Shown here one piece after another: positions 9 to 11,771 of a stretch of 13,180 nt of DNA. The notes under the pieces were generated by a model. That model was given only the letters and a program-made list of their open reading frames with translations. It searched no databases and had not been told where the DNA came from. The stretch comes from a virus (Duplodnaviria > Heunggongvirae > Uroviricota > Caudoviricetes): IMG/VR virus record IMGVR_UViG_2526164632_000020; one strand, 5' to 3'. How positions within the stretch are numbered: the first letter of the stretch is position 1; every line of letters starts with the position of its first letter. A program made the position numbers and the translations under genes.

Positions 9-139
9 AAAAGTTTGATGCTCAAAGAATTAAACTTCGTAATGAATTACGTGTTCACTCTTGAGACTTGGTATTCATTTTTCGTCTTGCGACGTTAAGA
101 ATCCGTATCTTCGAGTGCCCACACAGATTGTCTGATAAA

Positions 140-152
140 TTGTTAAAGAGCA
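140..152 (-). promoter_or_regulatory. rrn leader boxA antitermination element (TGCTCTTTAACAA)
   Basis: Minus strand reads TGCTCTTTAACAA, an exact match to the rrn boxA consensus, in the expected place between P2 and the 16S start. Confidence 0.65.
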
Positions 153-180
153 GTGCCGCTTCGCTTTTTCTCAGCGGCGC

Positions 181-217
181 GGGGTGTGCATAATACGCTT
201 TCCCGCTACAGAGTCAA
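181..217 (-). promoter_or_regulatory. rRNA operon promoter P2
   Basis: Minus strand TTGACT (-35, plus 212-217), 16-bp spacer, TATTAT (-10, plus 190-195), then GC-rich discriminator CACACCCCGCGCC; matches recalled rrn P2 sequence. Confidence 0.7.
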
Positions 218-298
218 GCATTTATTTTTGCTTTCTCTGCCGGAATTCTCAGGAGAACCCCGCTGACCCGGCGGCGTGTTTGCCGTTGTTCCGTGTCA

Positions 299-336
299 GT
301 GGTGGCGCATTATAGGGAGTTATTCCGGCCTGACAA
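299..336 (-). promoter_or_regulatory. rRNA operon promoter P1
   Basis: Minus strand TTGTCA (-35, plus 331-336), 16-bp spacer, TATAAT (-10, plus 309-314), discriminator GCGCCACCACTG; textbook rrn P1 core. Confidence 0.75.
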
Positions 337-415
337 GCGAAAAATATAAAAACCTTATCGTTCGCTCATTTTTCAGGCAAAACATCTTAAATATAGTCTT
401 TTCCGTCTAACTTAT
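337..415 (-). promoter_or_regulatory. rrn P1 UP element and upstream activating (Fis-site) region
   Basis: A/T-rich tract (GGTTTTTATATTTTTCGC on minus) immediately upstream of the P1 -35; individual Fis sites not resolved by eye. Confidence 0.4.
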
Positions 416-447
416 AGACAAAAACGAGCCCCGAAGGGCTCGTTTTA
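416..447 (-). terminator. Rho-independent terminator downstream of clpB (hairpin usable in both directions)
   Basis: Stem ACGAGCCC / GGGCTCGT (424-431 / 436-443) with loop CGAA; on the minus strand it is followed by TTTTTG, and it sits 5 nt past the clpB stop. Confidence 0.7.
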
Positions 448-451
448 TCAT

Positions 452-3025
452 TTACTGGACGGCAACAATCCGGTCTTCATTAACTTCCAGGCGAATCACT
501 TTACCCGGAACCAATTCACCAGACAGTATTTGCTGTGCCAGCGGGTTTTCGATCTGCTGCTGGATAGCACGTTTCAAAGGACGTGCACCATAGACTGGAT
601 CGTAACCGTTCTCGCTCAGCAGTTTCAGCGCCTCGTCAGAAATGTGGATTTCATAACCACGTTCTTCCAGACGTTTGTACAGACGTTTCAACTGAATCTG
701 CGCAATCGAGGCAATGTGCTGTTCACCCAGCGGATGGAAGACCACCACTTCATCAATACGGTTAATGAATTCCGGACGGAAGTTATGGCTTACCACACCG
801 AGCACCAGCTCTTTCATGTGCGCATAATCCAGTTCACCGAAGCGTTCCTGAATCAAATCGGAACCGAGGTTAGAGGTCATAATGACAACCGTATTACGGA
901 AGTCGACCGTTCTCCCCTGCCCGTCAGTCAGACGACCATCATCCAGTACCTGCAACAGAATGTTGAAGACATCCGGATGCGCTTTTTCCACTTCATCCAG
1001 CAGGATGACGGAATACGGACGACGACGCACAGCTTCGGTCAGGTAGCCACCTTCTTCATAACCGACATATCCCGGAGGCGCACCAACCAGACGAGACACC
1101 GAGTGTTTCTCCATAAACTCGGACATATCGATACGGACCATCGCCTCGTCGCTATCAAACATAAAGTTCGCCAGCGCCTTACAAAGCTCAGTTTTCCCCA
1201 CACCCGTTGGGCCGAGGAACAGGAATGAACCAATCGGGCGATTTGGATCCGCCAACCCCGCACGGCTACGGCGAATAGCGTTAGATACCGCATCAACCGC
1301 TTCGTTCTGACCAATGACGCGATGGTGCAGTTCTTGCTCCATACGCAGCAGTTTTTCGCGCTCGCTTTCCATCATGCGAGAAACCGGAATCCCCGTCCAA
1401 CGCGCCAGCACTTCAGCAATTTCGGCGTCGGTCACTTTATTACGCAACAGACGCATAGTTTTGCCTTCGAGCTGCGTTGCGGCTTCCAGTTGCTTTTCCA
1501 GTTCCGGGATTTTGCCGTATTGCAGTTCAGACATCCGCGCCAGGTCCCCCACACGGCGAGCCTGTTCAATAGCGATTTTCGCCTGTTCCAGTTCCGCTTT
1601 AATGGTCTGCGTACCAGAAAGCGATGCCTTCTCTGCTTTCCACTCTTCTTCTAACTCGGAGTACTGACGTTCTTTGTCGCTCAGTTCTTCGTTGAGCATA
1701 TCCAGGCGTTTTTTACTGGCTTCATCAGACTCTTTCATTAACGCCTGTTGTTCCAGTTTGAGCTGGATGATACGACGATCGAGTCGGTCGAGTTCTTCTG
1801 GTTTTGAGTCAATCTGCATACGAATGCTGGATGCTGCTTCATCGATCAGGTCGATGGCTTTATCCGGCAGCTGACGGTCAGCAATGTAGCGATGAGACAA
1901 CGTCGCCGCTGCAACAATTGCCGGGTCAGTAATTTGCACATGGTGGTGCAATTCGTAACGTTCTTTCAGGCCACGCAGAATCGCAATGGTATCTTCAACA
2001 GAAGGCTCGGCAACAAACACTTTCTGGAAACGACGTTCCAGCGCAGCATCTTTTTCGATGTACTGGCGATATTCGTCAAGCGTCGTGGCACCTACGCAGT
2101 GCAATTCACCACGCGCCAGCGCCGGTTTCAGCATGTTTCCGGCGTCCATTGCGCCATCGGCTTTACCCGCGCCGACCATGGTATGTAATTCGTCGATAAA
2201 CAGGATGACGTTGCCTTCCTGTTTGGCAAGATCGTTAAGCACGCCTTTTAAACGTTCTTCAAACTCACCGCGATATTTCGCCCCAGCCACCAGCGCGCCC
2301 ATATCCAGCGCCAGTACGCGGCGGCCTTTCAATCCTTCCGGCACTTCGCCGTTGATAATACGCTGCGCCAGACCTTCAACGATGGCAGTTTTACCGACGC
2401 CGGGTTCACCAATCAGTACCGGGTTATTTTTAGTACGACGTTGCAGCACCTGAATGGTACGGCGAATTTCTTCATCACGACCAATCACCGGATCGAGTTT
2501 GCCCTGTTCGGCTCGTTCGGTAAGGTCGATGGTATATTTTTTCAAAGCCTGACGTTGGTCTTCAGCACCTTGATCGTTCACGCTTTCACCTCCACGCATT
2601 TGTTCAATCGCTTGAGTAATGTTGGCGGTGGTCGCCCCTGCTGCTTTCAGGATGTCGGCCAGCGTGCCGCGAGACTCAAGTGCCGCCAGAACGAACAGTT
2701 CTGACGAGATAAAGTTATCACCACGTTTTTGCGCCAGCTTGTCGCAAAGATTAAGAACGCGCACCAGATCCTGTGATGGCTGGACATCACCACCAGTACC
2801 TTCAACCTGCGGTAAACGATTTAATGCCTGATTGATATCTGTGCGCAACTGGCCAGCATTTATGCCAGCGGATGTTAATAAAGGACTAACCGAACCCCCT
2901 TCCTGATTCAGCAGGGCGCTCATTAAATGAAGTGGTTCGATAAATTGGTTGTCGTGCCCGAGTGCAAGTGATTGGGCATCGGCAAGAGCAAGCTGGAATT
3001 TATTAGTAAGACGATCCAGACGCAT
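452..3025 (-). CDS. clpB: ClpB disaggregase (Hsp100, AAA+ chaperone), 857 aa
   Basis: ORF with two Walker A motifs ([16 protein letters not shown]) and a coiled-coil middle domain; starts [11 protein letters not shown] at ATG 3025 with SD GGGAGGAG upstream. The ORF-track start at 3037 is an upstream in-frame extension. Confidence 0.97.
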
Positions 3026-3057
3026 AACTCCTCCCATAACGGATCAAAGTTGCTACT

Positions 3058-3095
3058 GGAGATTAAATGAGGTCATCCCTCAATTATTCAAGGTT
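3058..3095 (-). promoter_or_regulatory. sigma-32 heat-shock promoter of clpB
   Basis: Minus strand CTTGAA (plus 3087-3092), 14-nt spacer, CCTCATTTA (plus 3062-3070); close to the sigma-32 consensus CTTGAA-N13-15-CCCCATnT. Confidence 0.6.
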
Positions 3096-3154
3096 ATTGA
3101 CCAGATTAATGTGAAAAGAAAATCACGCGTACCGGATCGTCTTGATTCTTTAGG

Positions 3155-3886
3155 TTATATCAGCCAAATGAAACTTGCCATACGACCGGTGGTCTTGTCG
3201 CGACGATAAGAGAAGAAAGTCTCATTTTCCGTATATGTACAACGGTCGCCGCCGAAAATTTGCTCAACACCCACGTTCGCCAGACGCTGCCGGGCAAGCT
3301 GATAAATATCCGCCAGATACTTATCACCATGCTGAATGAAAGCTGCACTTGCTTTAGCGTCTACTGCCATAAACGCCTCGCGAACCTCCACCCCCACTTC
3401 GAACGCGCGTGGACCAATTGCCGGCCCTAACCAGGCGAGAATATTTTCCGGATTATCAGCAAAACAGGAAACCGTCTCTTCCAGCACGCCTGCGCACAGT
3501 CCACGCCAGCCAGCATGAGCGGCGGCGACTTCCGTTCCCGCTCGATTGCAAAACAGCACAGGGAGGCAGTCGGCAGTCATCACTGCGCAAACCGTGCCGG
3601 GCGTATTGCTATAAGAGGCATCTGCTCGTTTTGAGGCATAAGGTTCGCCAGTAAGCTTAAGCACATCTTTGCCGTGTACCTGCTCAAGCCAGACCGGTTT
3701 AGAAGGCAAATTGCCCGCAGCAAAAAGTCGCTTGCGATTCTCCTCAACGTGATCCGGGTTATCGCCACAATGGGCACCGAGGTTGAGCGAGTCATACGGG
3801 GGCAAGCTCACGCCGCCGATACGAGAAGAGCTACAGGCCGCAACACCTTTTGGTAGCGGCCACTGCGGGACAATCAGCTTACTCAT
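3155..3886 (-). CDS. pgeF: YfiH/PgeF family protein (DUF152; peptidoglycan editing factor / purine nucleoside phosphorylase-like)
   Basis: 243-aa ORF MSKLIVPQWPLPKGVAAC... matching recalled E. coli YfiH; start overlaps the rluD stop by 4 nt. Confidence 0.93.
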   Translation of the reverse strand: MSKLIVPQWPLPKGVAACSSSRIGGVSLPPYDSLNLGAHCGDNPDHVEENRKRLFAAGNLPSKPVWLEQVHGKDVLKLTGEPYASKRADASYSNTPGTVCAVMTADCLPVLFCNRAGTEVAAAHAGWRGLCAGVLEETVSCFADNPENILAWLGPAIGPRAFEVGVEVREAFMAVDAKASAAFIQHGDKYLADIYQLARQRLANVGVEQIFGGDRCTYTENETFFSYRRDKTTGRMASFIWLI

Positions 3887-6496: not shown

Positions 6497-7303
6497 TTAT
6501 GTAGCCGAAATGGTTGTGGTAATAGTCCCCCGAAGCCGCTGCGCTGCTACCTCAAAATAATGATCACTGGTTTCTATACCAATAAATTTTCGCCCTGCTT
6601 TCAGTGCAGCCACACCCGTTGTCCCTGACCCCATAAAAGGATCAAGGACTGTTCCGCCACTATTCACAGTCCTGACCAGTTCCGCCATTAGTTCTTCTGG
6701 TTTTCCGGTCGGGTGCATTTTCTTTGACGGGATAACCGGGTACGTCATGCAACCGTCGAACGGCCCCGAAGGCGATTTATCTAAATGGCCTTTGCTGCCC
6801 CAGACGATGTATTCGCACTGATGCCTGAAATACCCCGTATGGGGTGTTCGTGACCCCCTCCCCTTGTTCCACGCAATGATGCCGCGCCATGTAAAGCCGC
6901 TGGCCTGAAACGCATCGGTTAAAGCTGGTAGTTGTCGCCAGTCAGTAAATACCAGGGCATAACCGCCCGGCCTGACTGCGCGGTGTGCCTGTGCCATCCA
7001 TAATTGTGTCCAGTAAGCCCACGAACGGGCGTCCATGTTTTCACCCGCGAACCCATCAAAGCGGTGAAGGTTCTCGCCGTTCAGATATTTTGCATGGCTG
7101 CCTTGGTTGGTGCGTCCGGCCTTGTGTGTCGCACCCGAACTGTAAGGCGGGTCAGTGATTAAGGCATCAATGCTTTCTGGCTCAATCAGCGGCAATATTT
7201 CCAGCGCATTCCCACGACAGAGCGTGGCATTGTCAGTCTGATAAACCTTAGTGTGTTCCGGTGTATGTGCTGGTTGGTGCTGGATTGCGATCCCCACGGT
7301 CAT
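6497..7303 (-). CDS. Prophage DNA methyltransferase, beta-class N6-adenine/N4-cytosine family (DPPY motif IV before FxGSGTT motif I)
   Basis: 268-aa ORF with DPPY (catalytic motif) near the N-terminus and DPFMGSGTTGVAA (AdoMet motif) near the C-terminus. Start ATG 7303 lies only 2 nt after SD AGGAG; in-frame GTG 7297 has better spacing. Target specificity unknown. Confidence 0.85.
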   Translation of the reverse strand: MTVGIAIQHQPAHTPEHTKVYQTDNATLCRGNALEILPLIEPESIDALITDPPYSSGATHKAGRTNQGSHAKYLNGENLHRFDGFAGENMDARSWAYWTQLWMAQAHRAVRPGGYALVFTDWRQLPALTDAFQASGFTWRGIIAWNKGRGSRTPHTGYFRHQCEYIVWGSKGHLDKSPSGPFDGCMTYPVIPSKKMHPTGKPEELMAELVRTVNSGGTVLDPFMGSGTTGVAALKAGRKFIGIETSDHYFEVAAQRLRGTITTTISAT

Positions 7304-7445
7304 AACTCCTCATGTGTGTGGGGTGCTCGATGGCTCTCGTTATCTGGTTAAGTGTTTTGCAGCGCGGACATTTTATTTCAATGTAGTGAAATGAGGCGCG
7401 GGCAAGTAGTTTGTTGCAATTTTTGCATCGTACATTTTGCGTCAT
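7248..7445 (-). CDS. com: Com-like zinc-finger translational regulator (Mu Com family)
   Basis: 65-aa ORF MTQNVRCKNCNKLLARASFHYIEIKCPRCK...EHPT, matching the recalled Mu Com pattern (RCKNCNKLL...IEIRCPRCK...EHPT). SD AAGAGGTG 7 nt upstream of ATG 7445; 3' end overlaps the methyltransferase start by 56 nt. Confidence 0.75.
   Translation of the reverse strand: MTQNVRCKNCNKLLARASFHYIEIKCPRCKTLNQITRAIEHPTHMRSYDRGDRNPAPTSTYTGTH
7292..7323 (-). promoter_or_regulatory. mRNA stem-loop sequestering the methyltransferase SD and start codon (mom-like translation inhibition structure)
   Basis: On the minus-strand transcript CCCCAC (plus 7318-7323) pairs with GTGGGG (plus 7292-7297); the 20-nt loop holds SD AGGAG and ATG 7303, and the alternative GTG start is in the 3' arm. 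Confidence 0.45.
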
Positions 7446-7637: not shown

Positions 7638-7934
7638 TTAGCCATATTTGCGGGCAAAGTCTTCATCAGAGGTGCATAGATAGATAAAAAACTCAATAAA
7701 TGCCACGATTGCCGGAATGAATGTCCAGCAAAAAATAAGGTAAAGGAATCCTTGCCCCACTTTACCTAAATAAAATTTGTGTGCACCAAGACCACCTAAA
7801 AAGAAAGCCAGTAGTGCGGCTGTCATTCTGCTTTTTGAACTTGCTGTTCTTTGAGGTGCTCCACAATTGGGGCAGGATGTGGCATCTTTATGTATTTCCT
7901 TGCCGCATCCGCGACAAAATACCATTTCACTCAT
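7638..7934 (-). CDS. Small membrane protein with N-terminal zinc-ribbon (CxxC...CxxC) and TM2-like domain; prophage cargo of unknown function
   Basis: 98-aa ORF MSEMVFCRGCGKEIHKDATSCPNCGAPQ followed by two hydrophobic helices with a TM2-type motif (LGGLGAHKFYLGKVGQG); SD-like AAAGGAA upstream. Confidence 0.7.
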   Translation of the reverse strand: MSEMVFCRGCGKEIHKDATSCPNCGAPQRTASSKSRMTAALLAFFLGGLGAHKFYLGKVGQGFLYLIFCWTFIPAIVAFIEFFIYLCTSDEDFARKYG

Positions 7935-8069
7935 AAAGAGTTCCTTTCAAATTTAAATAAGCGTTAAACCCACCACTCTTACTGGTGGGCCTCAATTTAA
8001 ATTTGGGTGCCACTTCGACCATACCCTGGCAACCGATTGACGGGGGATTGCTCCCCCGTCGCGGTTTCC

Positions 8070-8210
8070 TTACTGCTTACACTGTAAGAACGCCGCAAAC
8101 TCCGCTCCCCAGAAGCTCATCCGTATTTCGCACAGCGAACCATGCAGCATCCAGATGATGAGGATTGCCGTCACGCAGAACGTGATGGCCGTAAGCGATT
8201 TTTGCGACAT
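8070..8210 (-). CDS. hok: Hok/Gef-family type I toxin (46 aa), below the ORF-track length cut-off
   Basis: Hand translation of the minus strand from ATG 8210: MSQKSLTAITFCVTAILIIWMLHGSLCEIRMSFWGAEFAAFLQCKQ*. Single TM helix followed by the Hok signature SLCEIR...AAFL.C; SD AAGGAG 8 nt upstream. Confidence 0.6.
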   Translation of the reverse strand: MSQKSLTAITFCVTAILIIWMLHGSLCEIRMSFWGAEFAAFLQCKQ

Positions 8211-8340
8211 AGCACTTGCTCCTTTTCCGGAGAGGCGCTAACCTTTCACTTGTCAAGGTAATGCGGTTAGGGCCTCGGTTAAACAGAAATGTTTTCCGGG
8301 GCCTTTCCACATCCGGCCTTCGGGTATTCCCTCCGACCAT
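8077..8340 (-). CDS. mok: mok-like overlapping reading frame (modulator of killing) required for hok translation
   Basis: Open frame starting upstream of hok, overlapping nearly all of it in another frame and ending 7 nt before the hok stop, as in hok/mok loci. True start uncertain: ATG 8340 or GTG 8310 (GAAGG 7 nt upstream). Confidence 0.35.
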   Translation of the reverse strand: MVGGNTRRPDVERPRKTFLFNRGPNRITLTSERLAPLRKRSKCYVAKIAYGHHVLRDGNPHHLDAAWFAVRNTDELLGSGVCGVLTV

Positions 8341-8380
8341 CAGCCGAAAGGCACCCGCGCGTAATCTATCGCTTTTTTGT
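8290..8380 (+). ncRNA. sok: Predicted Sok-like antisense RNA (position approximate)
   Basis: Expected by analogy with hok/sok: a short antisense transcript covering the mok translation-initiation region. A plus-strand T6 run at 8373-8378 could be its terminator tail; no convincing promoter found by eye. Confidence 0.15.
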
Positions 8381-8400
8381 TACTCCGGCAATTCTGCCTG

Positions 8401-8661
8401 TTAATTCTGAGATAAAGGCAAGCTCATCTGATTGTTTCCCCTGTGTGAAGCTGGCAGCTCATGCCACGGGATACCTTCTGAAGAGTGAACGCCGGAGGCA
8501 TGTTTCGATGTGAATTTATGGAAAGCTTCCAGTGTTGAGAAGCATACGCCGCATTCCAGATTGTTACACTGGTAATACTTTTGCCGCACGGTGTTTGAAT
8601 CATTTTCCGGACGACTGGTGCGGATACGGGCAGATGCGCCACAAAGCGGACAACGGAACAT
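8401..8661 (-). CDS. ogr: Ogr/Delta-family zinc-finger late-gene transcription activator (P2-like)
   Basis: 86-aa ORF MFRCPLCGASARIRTSR...YYQCNNLECGVCF with the four-Cys Ogr zinc finger (P2 Ogr begins MFHCPLCQHAAHARTSR...YHQCQNVNCSATF); C-terminus diverges; SD AGGGAGG upstream. Confidence 0.8.
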   Translation of the reverse strand: MFRCPLCGASARIRTSRPENDSNTVRQKYYQCNNLECGVCFSTLEAFHKFTSKHASGVHSSEGIPWHELPASHRGNNQMSLPLSQN

Positions 8662-8676
8662 AGCGACCTCCCTTAA

Positions 8677-10729
<2,053 letters not shown>

Positions 10730-10734
10730 TTATC
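10730..10734. repeat. Target-site duplication TTATC (right copy)
   Basis: TTATC immediately outside the right inverted repeat. Confidence 0.7.
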
Positions 10735-11771
10735 AATGGTGTGCTCGGCTTTTGCAATGATCCAGTCCTGATTATCAATCTCGCTTTTAAATCCTGTTAC
10801 CGTGCCATGCATTTCGGGGTAGAGTTCTGCACGTCCACGCGCCAGCGTGATGGAGAATGATGCGGCTCCGCGTTGTAGTTGCTGCCACTTTGCCGCCGCT
10901 GCGCGTCTTGCTGCCTGCTCGTTCTGATAAGTCTTGCGTAACACAAACACATTGCCATCCGCGCCTTCCATATAGTCACCTTCACGGCTGCTGCTTTTCT
11001 CCTTTTTGGGTTTTGGCGGTTTACGGCGTTTCACGCTGACTTTTTTCTTTTTCCCGTAATTAAGATCAAGCCAGTAGGCGCGTACCCCCGTATACGCCTC
11101 GCGGTCAGCAATACGGAACTGATGGCGATCGCCGCTGCTGTGTGTAATGGCGAACGAGGGCAACGGCTGGCCCTGTGCGTTCACGCCACCACCTGGCATG
11201 ATGAATAACAGATTACCGCTTTTTACCGTGGTGATTGCGCCCAGCATTTCCGCCATGCGCGTAAGGAAGGACATGTCGCTTTCTTCGGTCTGGTCGGCGT
11301 GGTCGATTTCGATATCCATCAGCATTTCGCTGATTTGCGGTTTCAGACCATACCGATGAGCGATGGCGGATACCACACGCTCAACGGTCACATCATGCCA
11401 GGACACCTCACGTTTAACGTTAAATTCATCCCGAAAATCTGCGCTTCTGGCTGAAACAGTCAGCCTGTCCGGCGGTCCTTCGTGAGCGATTTCATCAACA
11501 ATGTAAGTGCCTTTTTCTGTCAGCGGTTCTCCCTTCCAGCCAATGAGAACCGTCAGGCGCGCGCCCCGTGGCGGTAGCTGCAACTGACCATCCGCATCAT
11601 CCAACGTGATGGTGAGCTGGTCCGCCTCAAACCCCGGTTGTCGGTCAGTGACAGGCTCATCAGGCGCTCTGCCACGCCTGACAGCGTTTTACCCTCCGCG
11701 AGAATATCAAAATCCGGCATTTTCACGGGGTCTGTGCCCTGACTGAGCAATTGCATGGTGGTGTCGGTCAT
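10730..11771 (-). pseudogene. P2-like tail protein D (late control gene D family), frameshifted near 11625-11637 and 3'-truncated by the IS insertion
   Basis: Start ATG 11771 (SD GGAGGA upstream): MTDTTMQLLSQGTDPVKMPDFDILAEGKTLSGVAERLMSLSLTDNRG, then the frame shifts by 1 nt at a GGGGTTT run into ...FEADQLTITLDDADGQLQLPPRGARL... (the 296-aa ORF). The reading frame runs into the IS right end at 10729. Confidence 0.85.

What the first reader, a model, noticed from the sequence alone, without database searches (positions are those of the whole stretch)
8070..8400. Unannotated hok/mok (sok) type I toxin-antitoxin locus inside the prophage
The ORF track has no toxin here because the gene is only 46 codons. 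Hand translation of the minus strand from ATG 8210 gives a single-TM peptide with the Hok signature SLCEIR...AAFLQCK. The 87-aa track ORF 8077..8340 overlaps it in another frame and ends 7 nt before the hok stop, exactly the mok arrangement. A perfect 9-bp GC stem (8039-8060) and a second hairpin with a T-rich tail (7963-7990) follow the stop, consistent with the highly structured 3' end of hok mRNAs. The antisense Sok RNA is inferred, not seen.
Basis: partly seen in the sequence, partly recalled or inferred. Interest (0 to 1): 0.7.

Follow-up and report, generated by a model that had tools for sequence, protein, structure and literature searches.

The report
Known prophage hok/sok toxin-antitoxin locus
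This is a real hok/sok-type RNA-controlled toxin-antitoxin module at the end of a P2-like prophage in the E. coli chromosome, but public annotation already labels it and a 2026 preprint has already catalogued this exact peptide and tested it for toxicity, so it is ordinary.

Summary
A 46-codon ORF (8210..8070, minus) encodes a single-TM peptide that passes the Pfam Hok/Gef threshold.

The flanks carry the anatomy of a hok mRNA:
- a 5' end (tac) that pairs with a 3' element (fbi) or, alternatively, with an upstream box (ucb); both pairings covary at the same tac positions
- a GC stem-loop after the stop codon
- a strongly conserved antisense promoter (TTGCTC-17-TAACCT) that would give a ~55-nt Sok RNA at about 8252-8306 (+)

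Three details need correcting:
- **Already annotated.** Identical DNA is labelled "Hok/Gef family protein" in RefSeq E. coli genomes. The exact peptide is entry 72_1621 of a 2026 bioRxiv Hok catalogue, where it was cloned and is not among the three non-toxic constructs.
- **The "mok" ORF is not conserved.** Most relatives close that frame or lack a start codon.

The host prophage is disrupted by an IS21-family insertion in gene D. Novelty: already known. Interest: low.

The parts
8070..8210 (-). hok toxin gene, 46 codons. N-terminal MSQKS, TM helix at about residues 6-22, periplasmic tail with Cys27 and Cys44 both hard-coded.
   Evidence: ORF list. Pfam HOK_GEF 29.9 bits against a cut-off of 22. 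Identical peptide 72_1621 in the Hok catalogue, cloned as LRP137 for a toxicity assay. RefSeq CDS WP_000078916.1.
8363..8391 (-). Candidate hok promoter: -35 TTGCCG (8391-8386), 17-nt spacer, -10 TAGATT (8368-8363), 6 nt before G8356.
   Evidence: Read from the sequence. The -10 is conserved as TA(G/A/C)A(T/A)T across relatives. It scores 8 of 12, below the scan threshold, so the consensus scan did not call it. Inferred.
8342..8356 (-). Predicted 5' end of hok mRNA, the tac element GGGUGCCUUUCGGCU.
   Evidence: The Rfam RF01794 match starts at 8356. It pairs with fbi in the MFE fold of the full-length RNA and with ucb in the fold of the truncated RNA. It covaries with both partners.
8298..8307 (-). 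ucb-like box GGAAAGGCCC C: the alternative partner of tac, which pairs with the GAGGC box in the closed form.
   Evidence: Folds. tac/ucb is 94.8% paired, with two pairs changed on both sides. Cols 77-83 with 107-113 in the consensus fold.
8272..8276 (-). GAGGC, homologue of the R1 mok Shine-Dalgarno box. No canonical start codon follows it here.
   Evidence: Rfam alignment. Majority fraction 0.981 across 31 sequences. 0 of 30 have ATG, GTG or TTG 4-13 nt downstream.
8232..8276 (-). Sok-target hairpin of the open (truncated) form: GAGGC...GCCUC closing CUAACC/GGUUAG, with a variable top.
   Evidence: Fold of 8356..8036. 95.9% of cells paired, with only one-sided changes.
8216..8244 (+). Predicted Sok promoter: -35 TTGCTC (8216-8221), 17-nt spacer, -10 TAACCT (8239-8244).
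   Evidence: It parallels the R1-type TTGCGC-17-TATCCT read from L019. It is conserved in 27 of 28 relatives listed. The -10 block is the most conserved non-coding block, at 0.989. The strict consensus scan did not call it.
8252..8306 (+). Predicted Sok antisense RNA, about 55 nt: a 17-nt single-stranded 5' tail, then a hairpin and CCUUU. Both ends are inferred.
   Evidence: Fold gives -21.5 kcal/mol, z -3.8. The 5' tail region is the least conserved block, at 0.768, between a conserved promoter and hairpin. No transcript data.
8077..8340 (-). Open in this allele but not conserved. Its ATG lies 16 nt into the mRNA, inside the tac region.
   Evidence: No Pfam or NCBIfam match.
8308..8312 (-). 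ATGTG: ATG 8312 opens a 19-codon uORF whose TGA stop codon lies at 8255-8253, and GTG 8310 opens the +1 frame into hok. This is the best-conserved candidate leader start in the subfamily.
   Evidence: The ATG is present at -102/-103 in 33 of 47 sequences, but its frame and stop differ between alleles.
8039..8060 (-). 9-bp GC stem-loop just after the hok stop. Likely the protective 3' stem-loop of the processed, active mRNA.
   Evidence: Sequence. Compensatory changes at cols 341-349/358-366, e.g. GC:23 CG:8 and GC:25 AU:6. The role is by analogy with the R1 Tr-hok 3' stem-loop (PMC9841398).
8005..8020 (-). fbi element GGUCGAAGUGGCACCC, complementary to the mRNA 5' end.
   Evidence: MFE fold. 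Consensus fold. 97.0% paired, 5 pairs changed on both sides, covariation 0.328 against 0.177 in shuffles and at most 0.045 when slid.
7966..7990 (-). Weak terminator-like hairpin (7-bp stem, then UUU) downstream of fbi. It lies outside the conserved module.
   Evidence: Sequence. Relatives carry unrelated sequence and other terminators after fbi. The terminator scan did not call it.

Best explanation
The locus is a hok/sok-family type I toxin-antitoxin cassette. It is carried as cargo at the ogr-proximal end of a P2-like (P88/Xuanwuvirus-like) prophage inserted next to raiA in an E. coli chromosome.

Proposed mechanism, by homology with R1 hok/sok:
- A weak promoter (TTGCCG-17-TAGATT) gives a roughly 350-390-nt minus-strand mRNA that starts at G8356.
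- In the full-length RNA the 5' tac element pairs with the 3' fbi element (8020-8005). The ucb box pairs with the GAGGC box, so the RNA is translationally inert and cannot bind the antisense RNA.
- Slow 3' trimming back to the GC stem-loop (8060-8039) removes fbi. tac then pairs with ucb, and GAGGC pairs with GCCUC to present the target hairpin.
- A short, unstable plus-strand Sok RNA (about 8252-8306, from TTGCTC-17-TAACCT) pairs with that leader and has the duplex destroyed.
- When Sok is no longer made (prophage loss, transcription shut-off or induction), the 46-aa Hok peptide is translated, inserts in the inner membrane and kills or lyses the cell.

Shown here: family membership of the peptide, the alternative pairings with covariation, and conservation of the antisense promoter.

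Taken from the preprint: the identical peptide was assayed, and the text names three other constructs as the only non-toxic ones.

Inferred: transcript ends, 3' processing, Sok existence and instability, RNase III cleavage, and the biological role.
For: - Pfam HOK_GEF above threshold.
- All seven residues conserved in more than 80% of Hok peptides (M1, C-x-T, LCE, E) are present, as M1, C12, T14, L26-C27-E28 and E37.
- 67 homologues are named Hok/Gef.
- The Rfam RF01794 leader model matches 8356-8197 on the hok strand at 46.2 bits, local E 3.9e-9. An R1-type locus matches the same model in the same orientation, ending at the hok AUG, at 87.2 bits.
- The 391-nt RNA folds at -174.2 kcal/mol, z -7.0, with 5'-3' end pairing.
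- The truncated RNA switches to tac/ucb plus GAGGC/GCCUC. These are the two conformations described for R1 (PMC9841398).
- Covariation supports tac/fbi and tac/ucb at the same tac columns.
- The GC stem-loop shows compensatory changes.
- The Sok promoter hexamers and spacing are conserved.
- Peptide 72_1621 was cloned and is not among the three non-toxic constructs out of 45.
- Identical DNA is annotated in RefSeq, and related DNA is found in 1549 of 5426 complete E. coli genomes.
- The same hok type follows gene D and ogr in a Salmonella P2-like prophage.
Against: - No transcript, processing or killing data exist for this locus itself.
- The Rfam score is below the family gathering score (46.2 against 59).
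- Neither promoter passes the strict consensus scan.
- No conserved mok reading frame exists, although R1 needs mok translation for Hok synthesis. Coupling must therefore work differently, or Hok is not expressed from the native locus.
- Chromosomal hok loci of E. coli were reported unable to mediate post-segregational killing (preprint introduction).
- The covariation comes mainly from two clades (E. coli-type and Salmonella-type), so it reflects few independent events.
Confidence: 0.9

Rival explanations
1. The cassette is structurally hok/sok but functionally silent. It would be an evolutionary relic whose Hok is never made from the native locus, as reported for several chromosomal hok loci, and it sits in a prophage that is itself decaying.
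For: - No conserved mok leader frame, while R1 requires mok translation up to the hok SD.
- Chromosomal hokA/B/C loci were reported not to mediate killing.
- Gene D of the prophage is split by an IS21-family element.
- Some relatives are clearly degenerate: L012 has a stop in hok, L015 has lost the 5' end, and L107 has a diverged tac.
Against: - In the window every RNA element is intact and pairs as in active loci.
- The Sok -10 and the GAGGC box are nearly invariant across 31 sequences, which decay would not preserve.
- Compensatory changes keep tac/fbi and tac/ucb paired.
- The peptide was not among the non-toxic constructs when expressed.
- hok has its own AAGGAG Shine-Dalgarno 8 nt before the ATG.
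Confidence: 0.2
2. Same molecular device, but its role is phage-centred rather than stabilising. It would help lysis and phage release on induction, as shown for hokW-sokW of Stx prophage Sp5, or abort infection by other phages.
For: - hokW-sokW aids lysis and doubles phage release after mitomycin C (PMC8621323).
- hok genes are about four-fold enriched in prophages.
- This hok type also sits next to lom in Stx phages and in P88-like phages.
- R1 hok/sok on a high-copy plasmid protected against T4.
Against: - HokW is a different Hok subtype: 51 aa, HokD-like.
- Nothing was tested for this cluster.
- The prophage in the window probably cannot produce particles, because gene D is interrupted.
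Confidence: 0.35
3. The 46-codon ORF and the hairpins are a chance resemblance in the spacer between ogr and the TM2 gene.
For: The ORF is very short, and the Pfam score is only 8 bits above the cut-off.
Against: - 67 homologues with E down to 1e-22.
- The whole 350-nt module is conserved in E. coli, E. albertii, Salmonella, Klebsiella and Citrobacter in different genomic contexts.
- RNA covariation is present.
Confidence: 0.01

Closest known systems
hok/mok/sok of plasmid R1 (the type I toxin-antitoxin paradigm)
   Same: - Hok/Gef peptide with one TM helix and the LCE motif.
- mRNA leader alignable to the same Rfam model (RF01794).
- 5' tac element with two alternative partners (fbi at the 3' end, ucb upstream).
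- GAGGC box paired with GCCUC in the open form.
- GC stem-loop after the stop codon.
- Antisense promoter of the same layout in the same place (TTGCGC-17-TATCCT in the R1-type locus, TTGCTC-17-TAACCT here).
   Different: - The peptide is 46 aa rather than 52.
- The Rfam score is below the gathering score (46.2 against 87.2 bits for the R1 type).
- No start codon sits where the R1 mok AUG lies, and no conserved overlapping frame exists.
- The location is a prophage, not a plasmid.
Hok cluster 72 of Escalera-Maurer et al. (bioRxiv 10.1101/2025.08.07.668861), entry 72_1621
   Same: The peptide is identical residue for residue. The preprint cloned it (pAZ3::72_1621, LRP137) for arabinose-induced toxicity tests and names only three other constructs as non-toxic.
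   Different: - The CDS differs by synonymous changes, e.g. CTG CAT here against TTG CAC.
- The preprint analysed coding sequences only and explicitly left Mok, Sok and mRNA structure aside.
HokA of E. coli (NCBIfam NF007290)
   Same: It is the nearest named K-12 paralogue: SLCE...EFAAFL.CK, with both cysteines hard-coded so no TadA editing is needed.
   Different: It scores 34 bits against a cut-off of 89, so it is not a HokA equivalog. It falls in a separate 60% identity cluster (72 against 93).
hokW-sokW of Stx2 prophage Sp5/933W
   Same: A prophage-borne hok/sok with experimentally shown toxin and antitoxin activity. Curated phage records label the window's type 'MokW-like host killing'.
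   Different: HokW is 51 aa (MKQQKAM...), a HokD/RelF-like peptide. The Stx-phage copy that resembles the window (80% DNA identity, next to lom) is a different, 46-aa gene.

Membership tests
Hok/Gef toxin family (Pfam PF01848) | Profile match above the curated gathering score | tested here: met
   29.9 bits against a cut-off of 22, E 4.1e-7, residues 7-44 on profile positions 5-42 of 42.
Hok/Gef toxin family (Pfam PF01848) | Small peptide (about 45-55 aa) with one N-terminal TM helix and the residues conserved in more than 80% of Hok peptides (M1, C16, T18, L30, C31, E32, E41 of the logo) | tested here: met
   46 aa with a hydrophobic stretch at residues 6-22. M1, C12, T14, L26, C27, E28 and E37 are present by alignment with the logo description.
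Hok/Gef toxin family (Pfam PF01848) | Toxicity on expression | not testable with these tools
   Not tested here. The preprint assayed the identical peptide 72_1621 and lists only 19_179, 60_1482 and 69_1540 as non-toxic. The figure itself was not seen.
HokA equivalog (NCBIfam NF007290) / Hok family toxin subfamily (NF007279) | Score above the curated cut-off | tested here: not met
   34 bits against 89, and 21.6 bits against 73. It is therefore a Hok/Gef family member but not HokA or the R1-type subfamily.
hok/sok type I TA locus (hok mRNA family) | Leader matches the Rfam hok/sok model RF01794 at its gathering score | tested here: not met
   46.2 bits against a gathering score of 59, although local E is 3.9e-9 and the full model (1-157) is matched. 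Relatives score 33-57 bits and an R1-type control scores 87.2. The homology is clear, but this is a subfamily the model does not reach.
hok/sok type I TA locus (hok mRNA family) | 5' tac element pairing with a 3' fbi element in the full-length mRNA | tested here: met
   MFE fold. Consensus fold. 97.0% paired, 5 pairs changed on both sides, above all shuffles and slid controls.
hok/sok type I TA locus (hok mRNA family) | Alternative tac/ucb pairing and SD/dcb pairing in the 3'-truncated mRNA (coupled covariation) | tested here: met
   Predicted in the fold of 8356..8036. tac/ucb is 94.8% paired, with double changes at the same tac columns that covary with fbi. SD/dcb is 95.9% paired but has no double changes, so that helix is uninformative.
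hok/sok type I TA locus (hok mRNA family) | cis-encoded antisense Sok RNA with its own promoter opposite the leader | tested here: inconclusive
   A conserved TTGCTC-17-TAACCT promoter and a hairpin give a plausible 55-nt RNA. No expression data exist, and the strict promoter scan is negative.
hok/sok type I TA locus (hok mRNA family) | Overlapping mok leader ORF whose translation is coupled to hok | tested here: not met
   It is open in the window. However, a canonical start in that frame exists in only 20 of 49 relatives, a stop at +80 occurs in 33 of 49, and no start follows the SD homologue in 0 of 30. A possible substitute start at 8312/8310 occurs in 33 of 47, with variable frame.
P2-like (Peduoviridae) prophage cargo | Flanked by P2-type late genes | tested here: met
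   Ogr/Delta zinc finger at 8401-8661, gene D fragments and tail sheath. The same order appears in strain 89-3156. There is 94-97% DNA identity to P88-like phages.

The most novel reading that the evidence does not exclude
In this Hok subfamily (cluster 72: 46-aa peptides in P2-like and Stx prophages, IncI1 and IncF plasmids, and Salmonella and Klebsiella chromosomes) the canonical mok leader gene may have been lost. The SD-like GAGGC box and all the RNA switches are kept. If so, Hok translation would be gated either directly through hok's own AAGGAG site or through a short upstream ORF (ATG 8312) whose frame and stop drift between alleles. That would be a mok-independent variant of hok/sok control.
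Probability: 0.3. Interest if true: 0.35.

Novelty: already known. Interest (0 to 1): 0.12.

Why it matters
It matters little for discovery. The gene is annotated in RefSeq, related DNA is present in roughly 29% of complete E. coli genomes searched, and the exact peptide is already catalogued and assayed.

Three practical lessons follow.
- ORF tracks with a length floor miss type I toxins, so scans should run small-peptide profiles.
- The Rfam 'sok' model is built in hok-sense orientation and misses this subfamily at its gathering score.
- Annotating 'mok' from any overlapping ORF is unsafe, because in this subfamily the frame is not conserved.

The last point offers a small, testable question about how Hok translation is coupled when no mok is present.

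Tried and rejected
- **Rfam at gathering thresholds.** It found only RyfD in the window. The hok leader appeared only with the E-value threshold.
- **Consensus promoter and terminator scan.** It found no promoter on either strand. It called the GC stem as a plus-strand terminator only, so it did not help with transcript ends.
- **Genome-contig scan.** It returned 7 loci.
- **Viral-contig scan.** It returned 80 loci that all carry the identical peptide, so they added little diversity. Diversity came from the look-up of encoding contigs on distant cluster members instead.
- **Equating this locus with hokW-sokW.** I considered and rejected this: HokW is a 51-aa HokD-like peptide.
- **The ATG at 8340 as the mok start.** Rejected, because it lies 16 nt from the mRNA 5' end inside tac and is absent from most relatives.
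- **AUU at 8262 (10 nt after GAGG, +1 frame) as a non-canonical mok start.** It is present only in the window-type alleles, so I did not adopt it.
- **Synonymous versus non-synonymous counts in hok** (214 against 228 codon differences). These are only a rough sign of constraint, and the identical-peptide set was selected by the search, so I did not lean on them.
- **Literature search for hok in P2-like prophages.** Nothing specific turned up.

Full report
**What is in the sequence**

On the minus strand, ATG 8210 opens a 46-codon ORF that ends at 8070. It encodes MSQKSLTAITFCVTAILIIWMLHGSLCEIRMSFWGAEFAAFLQCKQ.

- The peptide has one hydrophobic stretch, residues 6-22.
- It matches Pfam PF01848 (Hok/Gef) at 29.9 bits, above the curated cut-off of 22.
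- An 87-codon ORF (8340..8077) overlaps it in the +1 frame and stops 7 nt before the hok stop.
- A perfect 9-bp GC stem with a GCAA loop lies at 8060-8039.
- A 7-bp hairpin followed by TTT lies at 7989-7966.

**Context**

The window is E. coli chromosome. It runs clpB with the RyfD sRNA upstream, then yfiH, rluD, bamD and raiA. The end of a P2-like prophage follows:

- a DNA methyltransferase with a Com-like regulator
- a zinc-ribbon/TM2 protein
- hok
- ogr (Pfam Ogr_Delta)
- gene D and tail sheath

Gene D is split by about 1.9 kb that encodes IS21-type IstA and IstB, so this prophage copy is probably defective.

The 451 bases around hok are 100% identical in many RefSeq E. coli chromosomes, where PGAP annotates 'Hok/Gef family protein' WP_000078916.1. 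Related DNA occurs in 1549 of 5426 complete genomes. P88-like phages (Xuanwuvirus) carry it at 94-97% identity, labelled 'MokW-like host killing'. Stx phages carry an 80% identical copy next to lom. In Salmonella the same hok type again follows gene D and ogr.

**The RNA anatomy**

The Rfam family called 'sok' (RF01794) matches 8356-8197 on the minus strand, the same strand as hok, at 46.2 bits. The local E-value is 3.9e-9, but the score is below the gathering score of 59. A control explains the strand. A canonical R1-type locus (L019) matches the same model on the hok-sense strand, ending at the hok AUG, at 87.2 bits. Other members of this subfamily score 33-57 bits. The model therefore describes the hok mRNA leader, and this subfamily lies just beyond its threshold.

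The 391-nt RNA from 8356 to 7966 folds at -174.2 kcal/mol (z -7.0). Its first 15 nt pair with GGUCGAAGUGGCACCC at 8020-8005.

When the RNA is cut after the GC stem-loop (8356..8036), the predicted fold changes. The 5' end now pairs with GGAAAGGCCCC (8307-8298), and GAGGC (8276-8272) pairs with GCCUC (8236-8232) to form a hairpin. These are the closed tac/fbi plus ucb/SD conformation and the open tac/ucb plus SD/dcb conformation described for R1 (PMC9841398).

**Comparative support**

I aligned 31 non-redundant relatives from E. coli, E. albertii, Salmonella, Klebsiella, Citrobacter, phages and plasmids (A2).

| Helix | Cells paired | Pairs changed on both sides | Covariation score | Shuffled mean |
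|---|---|---|---|---|
| tac/fbi | 97.0% | 5 | 0.328 | 0.177 |
| tac/ucb | 94.8% | 2 | 0.130 | 0.057 |
| GAGGC/GCCUC | 95.9% | 0 | 0.081 | 0.088 |

- RNAalifold recovers the long-range 5'-3' helix on its own.
- For tac/fbi, 0 of 500 shuffles reach the observed score, and slid controls reach at most 0.045.
- For tac/ucb, the double changes fall at the very same tac columns (33 and 34), again above all 500 shuffles. One element covarying with two exclusive partners is the signature of the hok mRNA switch.
- The GC stem-loop also shows compensatory changes.
- The GAGGC/GCCUC helix varies only on one side, so it neither adds nor subtracts evidence.

One caveat applies. Most double changes separate an E. 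coli-type clade from a Salmonella-type clade, so they reflect few independent events.

**Sok**

On the plus strand, TTGCTC (8216-8221), a 17-nt spacer and TAACCT (8239-8244) mirror the TTGCGC-17-TATCCT arrangement at the same place in the R1-type locus.

- The hexamers and spacing are kept in 27 of the 28 relatives listed. One Salmonella copy has TATCCT.
- The -10 block is the most conserved non-coding block of the module, with a majority fraction of 0.989.
- The stretch just downstream, which would be the single-stranded 5' tail of Sok, is the least conserved, at 0.768.

This pattern fits a conserved promoter and terminator that frame a fast-diverging recognition sequence.

A start near G8252 and an end after the hairpin near 8306 give a 55-nt RNA with a 17-nt free 5' tail (-21.5 kcal/mol, z -3.8). 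This is inference only. There are no expression data, and the strict promoter scan calls nothing.

**mok**

The overlapping ORF is real in this allele but does not behave like a gene.

- Among 49 distinct related sequences, the +1 frame contains a canonical start upstream of hok in only 20.
- It is closed at +80 in 33, where a synonymous TGC-to-TGT change in hok creates TGA.
- Alleles that encode the identical Hok peptide differ in where the frame opens: -169, -130, -43 or -16.
- None of the 30 sequences that carry the GAGGC box has ATG, GTG or TTG 4-13 nt after the GAGG that corresponds to the R1 mok Shine-Dalgarno. Only scattered AUU, AUC or AUA codons occur there.
- The best-conserved candidate start is ATG at -102/-103 (window 8312-8310), present in 33 of 47. 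Its ORF ends at -45, at -30, or runs into hok, depending on the allele.

R1 needs mok translation only as far as the hok Shine-Dalgarno, so the stop at +80 alone would not matter. The missing start does matter. The 87-aa product has no family match. I therefore treat 'mok' as unsupported for this subfamily, and I treat the way Hok translation is coupled as open. The authors of the recent Hok survey also state that Mok cannot be predicted reliably.

**What is already known**

The bioRxiv survey by Escalera-Maurer and colleagues (10.1101/2025.08.07.668861) lists this exact peptide as 72_1621.

- Their supplementary tables show it cloned as pAZ3::72_1621 (LRP137).
- The text says 42 of 45 tested homologues were toxic and names three others as the non-toxic ones. 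I did not see the figure.
- The same paper reports that hok genes are about four-fold enriched in prophages.
- The hokW-sokW study shows one role such a prophage cassette can play: helping lysis and phage release after induction. HokW, however, is a different 51-aa subtype.

NCBIfam places the window's peptide nearest HokA but far below the equivalog cut-off, at 34 bits against 89.

**Verdict**

It is already annotated, catalogued and assayed, so it is not novel. The residual point of interest is that no conserved mok frame exists in this subfamily even though the SD-like box and both RNA switches are retained.

Noticed in passing
window 8862-10663 (+), within gene D (fragments about 8704-8805 and 10714-11604, -): About 1.9 kb encoding IS21-family IstA (rve plus HTH; apparently split, 8862-9647 and 9442-9885) and IstB (10064-10663) interrupts the prophage late gene D. 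Other E. coli strains have the uninterrupted gene, and the window aligns to them in two pieces covering 72%.
   Followed up: partly
window 3006-3144 (-): A full-length match to Rfam RF02768 (Ysr155/RyfD sRNA), 125.3 bits, lies immediately upstream of clpB.
   Followed up: no
window 6497-7303 (-) and about 7248-7445 (-): An N6/N4 DNA methyltransferase is preceded by a small gene that RefSeq calls a 'Com family DNA-binding transcriptional regulator'. This com-plus-modification-gene pair is reminiscent of Mu com/mom, here as cargo at the prophage end next to raiA.
   Followed up: no
window 7638-7934 (-): A 98-aa protein has an N-terminal zinc ribbon and a TM2 domain (PF05154, 68.6 bits). It lies directly downstream of hok as another small membrane-protein cargo gene of unknown role.
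   Followed up: no
L100 601-741 and 1095-1235; L101, L103, L104 and L105 likewise: In several Salmonella genomes, two copies of this 46-aa hok type sit in tandem about 350-500 nt apart. One site is next to a YafO-like toxin gene.
   Followed up: no
L019 344-559 (+) (IncFII plasmid pMTY1886, R1-type hok/sok): In this R1-like variant the usual mok AUG is in frame with hok, which would give a 71-aa N-terminally extended Hok. The usual mok frame is closed by a stop just upstream and has no AUG. PGAP annotates only a truncated hok CDS (458-559).
   Followed up: partly
A2 columns 113-143 (window 8271-8245): The part of the leader that would pair with the 5' tail of Sok is hypervariable, even among loci that encode an identical Hok peptide. 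This fits selection against cross-talk between co-resident hok/sok copies; up to 7 related places per genome were seen.
   Followed up: partly
L020-L099 (IMG/VR prophage predictions): About half of the predicted prophage contigs end exactly 3 nt after the hok coding match. Automated prophage boundaries therefore often cut through the hok 3' UTR, losing fbi.
   Followed up: no
L106 981-1040 (-): In a Salmonella diarizonae chromosome, an Ibs-family type I toxin gene lies about 240 nt downstream of this hok type, so two type I toxin genes are adjacent.
   Followed up: no
L003, L004, L007 (genome contigs): Near-identical copies of this E. coli-type hok occur in assemblies labelled Planococcaceae, Vagococcus and Xanthomonas pisi. 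These are most likely contaminating enterobacterial contigs.
   Followed up: no
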